Positions 50,866 to 51,817 of a DNA stretch of 64,000 nt are shown piece after piece. The notes beneath the pieces were generated by a model. The model saw only the letters and a program-made list of their open reading frames with translations. It was not told the origin of the DNA and did not search any database. Numbering within the stretch: position 1 is the stretch's first letter; every line of letters begins with the position of its first letter. A program made the position numbers and the translations under genes. The DNA is from a virus: the IMG/VR virus record IMGVR_UViG_3300012948_000003, positions 40,445-104,444 of that record. One strand, written 5' to 3'.

Positions 50866-51480
50866 TTATTCCTTGTTGCCGTTTGTAGGCTTAATCACAA
50901 GGTCCTCGCCTCGAAGCAGCTTTACGTCTTCAGCCGGAATACCAAGCTGAATCATATGCGCCAGAGCTACCTTTAGCTCCCAGCCATTATTTAAGAGTTC
51001 TTGGGCCATCATAGTAACTGCTACTCGCTTCTGCTCTGTTACATCAATTACTATCGGTGCGCCATTCAATCCAGTCAGCTCATTGCGTTGAGTTATGCGA
51101 TAGGTCTCCGGGATGTGAGCTTCGAGCATTCGTATTGTAAGCTGTGTCTCGTGCTGAGTTGTCTTCGCGACGCTTGTGATATTGCCTTTGTTATCGTAGA
51201 ACTCCCGGACAGATTCAGTTCCATTCACTGCTCGCTCATATGCTGATGCTTGTAGTTTCTCCTTTGCTGCGTTGTATGCATTCTCGATCATCTCTGCGAA
51301 TGCAGGATCGTTCTGAAGATATCTGTAATAGGTTTGCCGACTGATGCCAACCTTTCTGCAAGCCGCTGTTGGACTCAATGTGCGCTCGTATTCCTCTGCA
51401 ACAATCTCTTGCCAATTGTCACAAAGGATCGGTCCCTTCGGAAGACTGACCCGACCGTTTCCATTTGGATGACTACTCAT
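50866..51480 (-). CDS. terS: Terminase small subunit
   Basis: HTH (TAACRKVGISRQTYYRY..NDP.F), ERAVNG, NELTGLNGAPI. Confidence 0.75.
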   Translation of the reverse strand: MSSHPNGNGRVSLPKGPILCDNWQEIVAEEYERTLSPTAACRKVGISRQTYYRYLQNDPAFAEMIENAYNAAKEKLQASAYERAVNGTESVREFYDNKGNITSVAKTTQHETQLTIRMLEAHIPETYRITQRNELTGLNGAPIVIDVTEQKRVAVTMMAQELLNNGWELKVALAHMIQLGIPAEDVKLLRGEDLVIKPTNGNKE

Positions 51481-51817
51481 GTACGCTCGCGTTGGGAAGT
51501 CTAAGAAGGGAACTGTAAGTCTGATAACTCTCAAAGCTCAGACCTTCTCCCGGATTCCTATAGACTGGAACTCTATAACCTCTGCTACTGATCTTTACTT
51601 CGCCGTCTCGTAAGAAGGCTTGATAGAGAGTTGCGTGTCGTTCGAACTGCTCTACAATGGCCGGGTTGATCACTTTGCTTATAACCGCTTCGATCTCGTT
51701 GAGACAGAGACTGACAGTAGGCTCAGGCTTGAAGATACGAACGAAGGGCATTGCTGGCGCTATTGCAATCCCAGCCAGTCCTGCTCCTAATGTTCGAAGG
51801 AAATTACGCCTGTTCAT
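51473..51817 (-). CDS. Tat-signal-like peptide fused to a paralogue of the MCP N-terminus
   Basis: MNRRNFLRTLGAGLAG; residues ~40-88 align with MCP residues ~8-56. Confidence 0.65.
   Translation of the reverse strand: MNRRNFLRTLGAGLAGIAIAPAMPFVRIFKPEPTVSLCLNEIEAVISKVINPAIVEQFERHATLYQAFLRDGEVKISSRGYRVPVYRNPGEGLSFESYQTYSSLLRLPNASVHE

What the first reader, a model, noticed from the sequence alone, without database searches (positions are those of the whole stretch)
51473..51817. Tat-like signal fused to a diverged copy of the major capsid protein N-terminus
Seen: EAVISKVINPAIVEQFERHATLYQAFLRDGEVKISSRGYRVPVYRNP aligns without gaps to MCP EAVVRTAVNPEIEQQFEQAHTLYNRFYKGKPIEVNQRGYRIPFYDRP (20/47 identical). 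It is preceded by MNRRNFL plus a hydrophobic stretch, lies 28 kb from the MCP, and sits directly upstream of terS. Inference: a membrane-tethered or exported capsid fragment. It could be a decoy for capsid-sensing defence, a membrane anchor for procapsid assembly, or a dominant-negative against competing phages.
Basis: partly seen in the sequence, partly recalled or inferred. Interest (0 to 1): 0.7.

Follow-up and report, generated by a model that had tools for sequence, protein, structure and literature searches.

The report
Export-tagged copy of capsid N-arm
A small gene of an uncultured 104-kb phage joins a bacterial twin-arginine (Tat) export-type leader to an old, still-selected copy of the first ~65 residues of the phage's own head-shell protein. 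A few metagenomic relatives share the design, the papers I could search do not describe it, and its purpose is untested.

Summary
Window 51473..51817 (-) is a 114-aa gene. Residues 1-22 are a Tat-type leader: NRRNFL, a 14-residue G/A-rich core and A-P-A. It scores 19.1 bits on TIGR01409 (cut-off 16.7) but falls below Pfam's cut-off. Residues 37-95 are a paralogue of residues 4-69 of the phage's own T7-type major capsid protein, 28.6 kb away (BLASTP E 2e-14; z=21 against shuffles). Third codon positions are randomised while first and second are kept, so the copy is old and selected. Four metagenomic proteins share leader plus capsid piece (E 1e-15 to 9e-4), which fixes the start at M1 rather than the database's M23. 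The same capsid piece also occurs without a leader in other small proteins. In the one related complete phage I could fetch, a leaderless copy again abuts the terS-like gene. That phage's capsid gene is cut into 9 pieces, with at least 4 group I introns. Function is untested. I read the gene as an exported or membrane-held mimic of the capsid N-arm. Structure and complex predictions gave nothing usable. This scan has reported the same design on other phage DNA several times (unchecked AI notes), and I found no paper on it.

The parts
51473..51817 (-). The gene: 114-aa protein (P0001), stop codon included
   Evidence: Codon-usage log-odds are positive only in this frame, for both the leader (codons 1-22) and the rest. 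The upstream gene's TAA lies 2 nt before the ATG, and the gene's own stop overlaps the next gene's ATG.
51752..51817 (-). Tat-type leader, residues 1-22: NRRNFL motif, 14-residue G/A-rich h-region, A-P-A at residues 20-22
   Evidence: TIGR01409 19.1 bits (cut-off 16.7). PF10518 18.1 bits (cut-off 22.7). N2, R3, R4 and F6 are invariant in the five family members.
51710..51751 (-). Residues 23-36: proline-rich linker. It starts at M23, where the public gene call (P0003, 92 aa) begins.
   Evidence: All five relatives have a P-rich stretch here.
51533..51709 (-). Capsid N-arm module, residues 37-95: paralogue of MCP residues 4-69
   Evidence: A module HMM scores it at E 4e-25 among all six-frame ORFs of two phage genomes.
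51476..51532 (-). C-terminal tail, residues 96-114. It weakly resembles the start of the 'HPW..RGE..LPH' module of P0009/P0010.
   Evidence: The tblastn alignment of P0009 runs on to ORF residue ~105; see also alignment A3. Weak evidence.
22933..23130 (-). The original: codons 4-69 of the major capsid protein gene (N-arm and start of the next element)
   Evidence: The AF2 model is poor but places helices at residues 2-15 and 19-36.
21880..23139 (-). Major capsid protein gene, 419 aa, uninterrupted in this phage
   Evidence: 23 database relatives, 52-89% identical where full length.
50866..51480 (-). terS-like HTH gene (204 aa), translationally coupled to the ORF
   Evidence: phrog_4044 E 7e-16 and phrog_309 E 6e-13. 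Its homologue in G001 is 31% identical overall (40% in the best local segment) and also abuts a capsid-module ORF.
51820..51972 (-). Upstream 50-aa zinc-ribbon-like ORF. Its stop lies 2 nt before the ORF's ATG.
   Evidence: phrog_14257 E 5e-4.
50204..50443 (-). 79-aa ORF carrying the 'HPW...CxxC' module that is fused to the capsid module in P0009/P0010
   Evidence: E 0.002, P0009 residues 56-103; sequence.
23159..24688 (-). 509-aa Q/E/A-rich protein directly upstream of the MCP with an Arg-rich C-terminus: candidate scaffolding protein and possible natural partner of the N-arm
   Evidence: sequence. There are no family matches. The assignment rests on position and composition only.

Best explanation
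This is a genuine, expressed accessory gene. Its product has two parts. The first is a twin-arginine (Tat) type leader. It should deliver the short protein to the host Tat translocase, and signal peptidase should cut it after A-P-A. The leader core is only 14 residues, too short for a stable membrane helix, so the likely outcome is a ~92-aa product released outside the cytoplasmic membrane, or held there if it is not cut. The second part is an old copy of the N-terminal arm of the phage's own T7-type coat protein: two helices and the first strand that follows. The copy has been kept at the protein level and is not predicted to fold on its own. I infer that it works by mimicry, offering the coat arm's binding surface to whatever normally grips that arm, and that the leader takes or holds this partner at or beyond the membrane. 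In P22 the partner of the coat arm is the scaffold's basic C-terminal hook. Here the candidate scaffold ends in an Arg-rich helix. What is shown: the gene, the start at M1, the leader's match to Tat models, the paralogy and its age, and conservation of the fusion in relatives. What is inferred: export, cleavage, mimicry and the partner. My odds: real selected gene 0.9, Tat-dependent targeting 0.6, action through arm mimicry 0.4.
For: Paralogy: E 2e-14 and z=21, with third codon positions randomised and first and second positions kept.

Leader: TIGR01409 is above its cut-off in P0001, P0004 and P0005.

Family: an exhaustive phmmer search of 1.84 billion proteins found four other small proteins (74-108 aa) with the same order of leader, P-rich linker and capsid module. 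E-values run from 1e-15 to 9e-4, and N-R-R-x-F is invariant. The cargo of one of them (P0011) by itself matches positions 2-49 of the podovirus capsid model (E 5e-5).

Coding signal is in this frame only, leader included, and the gene is tightly coupled to both neighbours.

The copies sit on longer terminal branches than most of the capsid proteins yet keep the FEAV, NP.I..QFE, TLY and RGYR.P motifs.

The module is portable. It is also fused to an 'HPW-CxxC' module in P0009/P0010 and in phage G001, as expected of a docking peptide.

AF2 gives one long helix and no globular fold, as expected of an arm that folds on a partner.

The same transcription run also encodes a Sec-signal mini-protein and small membrane proteins.

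In P22 the coat N-arm is the scaffold docking site (PMC12005531).
Against: The Pfam Tat model is below its cut-off, and P0006 and P0011 are below the TIGR01409 cut-off. No Shine-Dalgarno sequence precedes M1, although many genes of this phage have one. Capsids never reach the periplasm, so an exported coat mimic has no obvious partner there. E20, invariant in the capsid proteins, is replaced in P0001, P0004 and P0006 (alignments), so at least one coat contact is not kept. The related complete phage G001 has only leaderless copies, so the leader is not essential to the module. The phage encodes no TatA and its host is unknown. Contexts of the four relatives could not be fetched.
Confidence: 0.45

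Rival explanations
1. The protein is exported, but its cargo is capsid-derived only by descent. After capture by a Tat leader, the helical piece took on an unrelated envelope role, for instance superinfection exclusion or action on a periplasmic or membrane host target.
For: The copies sit on much longer terminal branches than most of the capsid proteins (0.39-3.7 against 0-0.34 changes per site). P0005 and P0011 keep only 12-29% identity to capsid proteins in the module, while the leader stays nearly invariant. The capsid-invariant E20 is lost. The operon holds other secreted or membrane mini-proteins.
Against: P0004 and P0006 remain 51-55% identical to this phage's capsid arm. That is more than they are to each other (47%), and they keep the same motifs. 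This suggests constraints shared with the capsid arm.
Confidence: 0.2
2. The protein works in the cytoplasm in head assembly or DNA packaging together with the terS-like protein. The leader serves as a membrane tether at the cytoplasmic face, or is skipped by initiation at M23, and the arm copy docks to scaffold, portal or procapsid.
For: The gene's stop overlaps the terS-like start. In phage G001 a leaderless module ORF overlaps the end of the terS-like gene. The public gene call starts at M23. In 11 other IMG/VR contigs, small genes starting MNRRxF followed by a WPFR motif lie next to terL or terS in 6 cases.
Against: With RR at the N-terminus and a short h-region, the expected topology puts the cargo outside the cytoplasm. 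N-R-R-x-F is invariant in all five relatives, which a skipped leader would not explain. The post-RR part of the WPFR leader family is not significantly similar to P0001 (1.6 bits), so that synteny may not transfer. Gene borders next to terminase genes are common insertion sites for accessory genes (general knowledge).
Confidence: 0.2
3. The protein is a cytoplasmic decoy for a host defence sensor that recognises the capsid protein.
For: Capsid proteins are known triggers of abortive-infection sensors (general knowledge: CapRel, Lit, PifA). The gene lies in an early-looking operon of small genes.
Against: The conserved Tat-type leader argues against a cytoplasmic location. No defence-related family matched. 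An earlier scan note on a sister case says a later check weakened the 'Tat export of decoys' reading (that note is an unchecked AI note and that case was not re-tested here).
Confidence: 0.08
4. The ORF is a non-functional relic: a stray copy of the first capsid exons left by intron or homing-endonuclease-driven recombination. The Tat-like start would then be chance.
For: Capsid genes of this phage group are riddled with mobile introns. In G001 the gene is in 9 pieces with at least 4 group I introns, and database relatives carry foreign inserts. The copies end near residue 56-69, close to the exon 2/3 border at residue 63. G001's own leaderless copy has an in-frame TAG.
Against: The frame is open and codon usage is coding. 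Synonymous sites are saturated while the protein is conserved. The same fusion is kept in four diverged relatives. No intron-like RNA lies beside the gene.
Confidence: 0.05

Closest known systems
Bacterial twin-arginine (Tat) signal peptides (TIGR01409, Pfam PF10518), including hitchhiker co-export of signal-less partners (E. coli HybO/HybC, DmsA/DmsB; general knowledge)
   Same: N-terminal N-R-R-x-F-L motif, a moderately hydrophobic G/A-rich core of 14 residues and an A-x-A site. The score is above the NCBIfam cut-off.
   Different: The gene is phage-encoded and the cargo is about 90 residues with no cofactor domain and no predicted globular fold. The score is below the Pfam cut-off. Export is untested.
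T7-type (podovirus) HK97-fold major capsid proteins (NCBIfam NF033394 capsid_maj_Podo) and the phage's own MCP
   Same: Residues 37-95 are homologous to the first ~65 residues of the MCP. The cargo of relative P0011 matches model positions 2-49.
   Different: Only the N-arm is present. The P and A domains that make a shell subunit are absent, so the protein cannot be a capsid building block.
SaPI1 CpmB, which competes with the helper phage's scaffold for its site on the coat; P22 scaffold hook binding the coat N-arm (PMC12005531)
   Same: The idea is the same: a short helical peptide that copies one side of the coat-scaffold contact.
   Different: CpmB mimics the scaffold side and acts in the cytoplasm. 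Here the coat side is copied and carries an export leader. There is no sequence relationship, and binding was not shown here.
T4 internal proteins (IPI-III, Alt) with a conserved N-terminal capsid-targeting sequence and variable cargo (general knowledge)
   Same: A conserved short N-terminal leader on small, fast-evolving phage proteins encoded near head and packaging genes.
   Different: The leader here is Tat-like rather than a T4-type targeting sequence. No prohead protease site or protease was identified, and the capsid-like part is the cargo, not the address.
Sister cases reported earlier in this scan (unchecked AI notes): Tat-type leaders on copies of capsid, portal, terminase or tail pieces in other uncultured phages
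   Same: Same architecture: a leader plus a diverged piece of the phage's own virion protein, small size and fast evolution.
   Different: The lineage and leader subtype differ. Membership of the near-invariant WPFRVYSFP leader family was not shown here. Those notes are not independent evidence.

Membership tests
Tat signal peptide (TIGR01409 / PF10518) | Twin-arginine motif (S/T-R-R-x-F-L-K-like) near the N-terminus | tested here: met
   N-R-R-N-F-L-R at residues 2-8. N, R, R and F are invariant in the five relatives.
Tat signal peptide (TIGR01409 / PF10518) | Score above the curated model cut-off | tested here: inconclusive
   TIGR01409 scores 19.1 against 16.7 and passes. PF10518 scores 18.1 against 22.7 and fails.
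Tat signal peptide (TIGR01409 / PF10518) | Uncharged h-region of about 12-20 residues followed by an A-x-A type peptidase site | tested here: met
   Residues 9-22 are uncharged and G/A-rich, with A-P-A at 20-22, read from the sequence. No SignalP or TatP tool was available.
Tat signal peptide (TIGR01409 / PF10518) | Tat-dependent translocation in vivo | not testable with these tools
   The host is unknown, the phage encodes no TatA, and there is no expression data.
HK97-fold major capsid protein (capsid_maj_Podo) | Complete fold with N-arm, E-loop, P and A domains | tested here: not met
   Only MCP residues 4-69 are matched and the protein ends at residue 114.
HK97-fold major capsid protein (capsid_maj_Podo) | Sequence homology to the family's N-terminus | tested here: met
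   E 2e-14 to the phage's own MCP. Relative P0011 matches the model at E 5e-5.
Leader-plus-capsid-module mini-protein family (P0001, P0004, P0005, P0006, P0011; undescribed) | RR leader, P-rich linker, then capsid N-arm module, in a protein of 74-114 aa | tested here: met
MNRRxF...WPFRVYSFP leader family of IMG/VR phages (L032-L042; undescribed) | Conserved leader including the WPFR(V/K)(Y/I)(S/F)FP motif after the h-region | tested here: inconclusive
   The full-leader HMM hits P0001 at 31.6 bits, but the part after RRxFL scores only 1.6 bits. P0001 has M-P-F-V-R-I-F-K-P at the same place.
MNRRxF...WPFRVYSFP leader family of IMG/VR phages (L032-L042; undescribed) | Position next to terminase genes | tested here: met
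   P0001 abuts the terS-like gene. Six of the 11 loci lie next to terL or terS.
Spanin or lysis-cassette protein | Neighbouring holin and endolysin genes; for an i-spanin, a partner o-spanin lipoprotein | tested here: not met
   No lysis-enzyme family was found among the neighbours scanned. The whole genome was not scanned for endolysins.

The most novel reading that the evidence does not exclude
The gene is one instance of a widespread, undescribed phage strategy. Tat-type leaders carry short mimics of the phage's own virion proteins, here the coat N-arm. Whatever protein grips that piece (a host sensor, or a co-infecting rival's scaffold or coat) is then dragged out of the cytoplasm or pinned at the Tat translocase, by hitchhiker-style removal. 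The mimics may be seeded by exon-sized pieces shed from intron-riddled capsid genes.
Probability: 0.15. Interest if true: 0.9.

Novelty: new variant of a known kind. Interest (0 to 1): 0.6.

Why it matters
If the product really is exported, then phages send pieces of their own shell protein out of the cytoplasm, and current models of phage assembly and phage-host conflict have no place for that. If the arm copy binds the scaffold or another coat partner, it would be a natural minimal peptide for that contact, useful for studying or blocking capsid assembly. The case also shows that public gene calls can cut off such leaders: here the 92-aa call from M23 hides the design. Finally, it links capsid-piece mini-genes to phage lineages whose capsid genes are heavily invaded by introns, which suggests where such pieces come from.

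Tried and rejected
Tools that did not run:
No synteny, dN/dS or cognate-capsid test in relatives was possible.

Searches that found nothing:
- GenBank phages hold no relative of the ORF, the region, the MCP or a WPFR-leader protein.
- IMG/VR scans with P0004, P0005 and the MCP alone found nothing.
- The metagenome scan with P0005 returned only an unrelated Tat signal.
- Two genome-contig scans found nothing.

Predictions that gave nothing usable:
- The AF2 model of the MCP from 9 sequences was unusable (pLDDT 36).
- The AF2 model of the ORF was low-confidence (pLDDT 52).
- PDB profile searches found nothing, and the ESM Atlas gave no usable hit.
- Complex prediction of the MCP with ORF residues 37-114 returned no verdict (score 0.00, controls not run). 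This is no evidence either way.

Ideas dropped:
- That P0009/P0010 are fusions of the capsid module with terS. The similarity of their C-terminal halves to terS is not significant.
- That cargos of the other leader genes are copies of neighbouring genes. No match was found within their loci or genomes.
- That the ORF belongs to a lysis cassette. No lysis families were found nearby.
- That the phage brings its own TatA.

Other:
- The 2408-aa repeat protein P0007 (E 3e-5, six stretches) looks like a compositional hit and was not pursued.
- The tree of the 60-column module is unresolved. A single origin of the leader family is neither shown nor rejected (p-AU 0.48).

Full report
**Setting.** The window is bases 40445-104444 of a 104,444-bp IMG/VR virus record that CheckV rates 100% complete. 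It has 52% G+C and no tRNA genes in the window. It is far from any cultured phage. The region, the ORF and the capsid protein have no match in 50,697 GenBank phage records. The large terminase (window 38213..39835, phrog_2 E 7e-35) is at best 29% identical to those of Thermus and Tunturiibacter phages. The host is unknown.

**The observation.** The ORF lies on the minus strand at 51473..51817 and encodes 114 aa. The capsid protein gene is at 21880..23139 on the minus strand, 419 aa from its ATG. It matches NCBIfam capsid_maj_Podo over almost its full length (E 3.3e-8) and phrog_14242 'major head protein' (E 1.2e-5). These matches are weak but consistent with its place behind a Q/E/A-rich 509-aa scaffold-like gene.
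- BLASTP of the two proteins gives E 2e-14.
- The alignment runs from ORF residues 37-95 to capsid residues 4-69.
- In the core, first and second codon positions agree at 26 and 30 of 47 sites, but third positions at only 14 of 47, about chance. The duplication is therefore old, and both copies have been held as proteins since.

**The gene is real and starts at M1.**
- Codon-usage log-odds trained on the phage's 29 longest ORFs are positive only in this frame, both for codons 1-22 and for codons 23-114.
- The upstream zinc-ribbon ORF ends 2 nt before the ATG. The ORF's own stop overlaps the ATG of the next gene (ATGAGTAG).
- The public protein on record (P0003, 92 aa) starts at M23 and so lacks the leader.
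- An exhaustive phmmer search of 1.84 billion representatives found four other small proteins that align from residue 1: P0004 (108 aa, 52%, E 1e-15), P0005, P0006 and P0011.
- All five share N-R-R-x-F, a short G/A/V-rich core, a proline-rich linker and then the capsid-like piece. This conservation, rather than a ribosome-binding site, fixes the start. No Shine-Dalgarno precedes M1, although many genes here have one.

**The leader.**
- TIGR01409 passes its cut-off in P0001 (19.1 bits against a cut-off of 16.7), P0004 and P0005. P0011 is just below and P0006 fails.
- Pfam's model is below threshold in all of them.
- By eye, the uncharged stretch is 14 residues with A-P-A at positions 20-22. That is shorter than a stable membrane helix, so a cleavable signal is more likely than an anchor.
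- The phage has no TatA of its own.

**The cargo is a portable module.**
- An HMM of the module finds, in this genome, only the capsid gene and this ORF.
- P0009 and P0010 (140 and 143 aa, 40% identical to each other) start exactly like a capsid protein and are 55-66% identical to capsid residues 1-56. They then continue into a different 'HPW..RGE..LPH..CxxC' module.
- That second module exists on its own in this window at 50204..50443, about 420 nt past the end of the terS-like gene.
- P0011's cargo alone hits positions 2-49 of the podovirus capsid model.
- The AF2 model of the ORF is low-confidence: one long helix (residues 39-71) and no globular fold. The poor capsid model puts two helices at residues 2-15 and 19-36.
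- Both results fit an N-arm, a segment that takes shape on a partner. In P22 the coat N-arm is where the scaffold's basic hook docks (PMC12005531). The candidate scaffold here ends in an Arg-rich stretch. That is an analogy, not a result.

**A related complete phage.**
- A capsid-profile scan of IMG/VR found one relative, G001 (104,058 bp, terminal repeats).
- It has no leader-bearing copy but two leaderless module ORFs.
- One of them overlaps the end of G001's terS-like gene (31% identical overall to ours, 40% in the best local segment). It continues, after a single in-frame TAG at a position where P0009 has Gln, into the HPW-CxxC module.
- So the capsid module touches the terS-like gene in both phages, on opposite sides.

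**Introns.**
- G001's capsid gene is spread over 5.4 kb in nine pieces with at least four Rfam group I introns.
- Many database relatives carry capsid pieces with foreign flanks, one of them with an AP2 domain.
- Exon borders fall after residues ~31 and ~63, and the mini-gene copies end at residues 56-69.
- This suggests, but does not show, that exon-sized pieces shed by intron or endonuclease traffic seeded these genes. No intron-like RNA lies beside the ORF.

**Other leader genes.**
- Scans seeded with the leader found 11 IMG/VR contigs with small genes that begin MNRRxF and carry an almost invariant WPFR(V)YSFP motif, followed by unrelated short cargos.
- Six of the eleven lie next to terL or terS.
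- Their cargos are not copies of neighbouring genes as far as I could see.
- Beyond the RRxFL start, their leader is not significantly similar to P0001. I do not file P0001 in that family.

**Earlier notes of this scan.** The notes report the same design, a Tat-type leader on pieces of capsid, portal, terminase or tail proteins, in several other uncultured phages. These are unchecked AI notes. I used them as leads and to temper the decoy idea, not as support. Four literature searches on this topic turned up no description of such genes.

**Reading.**
- The fusion, its age and its conservation are shown. Export, cleavage and mimicry are inferred.
- I favour an exported or membrane-held coat-arm mimic (overall about 0.45).
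- The rivals are: an exported protein whose cargo is capsid-like only by descent (0.2), a cytoplasmic head-assembly or packaging role tied to terS (0.2), a cytoplasmic immune decoy (0.08) and a dead relic (0.05).
- The module tree is unresolved. The copies sit on long branches (0.39-3.7 changes per site) while most capsid proteins sit on 0-0.34.
- The complex prediction with the capsid protein gave no verdict and counts for nothing.

**Verdict.** This is an unusual, apparently undescribed domain combination built from two known parts.

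Noticed in passing
L004 8300-14100 (= G001:63950-69369, minus strand): The capsid gene of the related 104-kb phage G001 is split into nine pieces over 5.4 kb. Rfam detects four group I introns (L004 8759-9704, 10422-11352, 12091-13007, 13152-13395). The capsid gene in this window is uninterrupted.
   Followed up: partly
proteins P0024, P0026, P0031, P0033-P0042: Many database relatives of the capsid protein are capsid pieces with foreign flanks or in-frame inserts. Examples: P0026 has a 186-aa insert between capsid residues 299 and 307, and P0024 carries an AP2 domain. 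They look like intein, intron or homing-endonuclease invasions across this phage group.
   Followed up: partly
window 50204-50443 (-); L005 755-1228 and 1231-1434 (-); P0009, P0010: An unannotated 'HPW..G..SY..RGE..LPH.P..CxxC' module occurs alone, fused behind the capsid N-arm module, or behind a different N-terminus. In both phages it lies near the terS-like gene. It has no Pfam or PHROG match.
   Followed up: partly
L005 1450-1452 (-): A single in-frame TAG splits G001's capsid-module/HPW gene exactly where homologue P0009 has Gln (CAG). It could be a nonsense mutation, a read-through site or a recoded stop. I did not check the rest of that genome for TAG use.
   Followed up: no
L032-L042, L026-L028 (IMG/VR contigs): A family of 80-150-aa phage proteins has an almost invariant leader (MNRRxF, G/A-rich core, RTWPFRVYSFP) and unrelated short C-termini. 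Some are in tandem (L027, L032). Six of 11 lie next to terL or terS. No PHROG or Pfam family covers the cargos.
   Followed up: partly
window 826, 6788, 12579, 16597, 28602, 36330, 41548, 54961 (gene starts, minus strand): The palindrome TTTCTTTTAAAAGAAA sits 0-10 nt upstream of many ATG codons and appears to bound transcription units. The unit holding this ORF would run from about 54961 to about 50570. Other readers of this genome noted the same motif.
   Followed up: no
window 51473-51480 and L005 1598-1614: The gene junctions are almost the same string in the two phages (CATGAGTAG here, CATGAGTGA in G001), but with the gene order reversed: module gene then terS here, terS then module gene in G001. 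This could be chance, or a short recombination joint.
   Followed up: no
window 23159-24688 (-): A 509-aa Q/E/A-rich, low-complexity protein lies directly upstream of the capsid gene and has an Arg-rich C-terminus. It is probably the scaffolding protein. It has no family match.
   Followed up: no
window 49018-50017 (-): A dual-specificity phosphatase-like gene (PF00782, E 5.5e-9, HCxxGxxR motif) overlaps an Rv2179c-like 3'-5' exoribonuclease gene (PF16473, E 1.7e-12).
   Followed up: no
window 53616-53977 and 50436-50570 (-): The same gene run encodes a 67-aa Cys-rich protein with a Sec-type signal and two mini-proteins, each with one hydrophobic helix. The Tat-leader gene is therefore not the only envelope-directed product here.
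   Followed up: no
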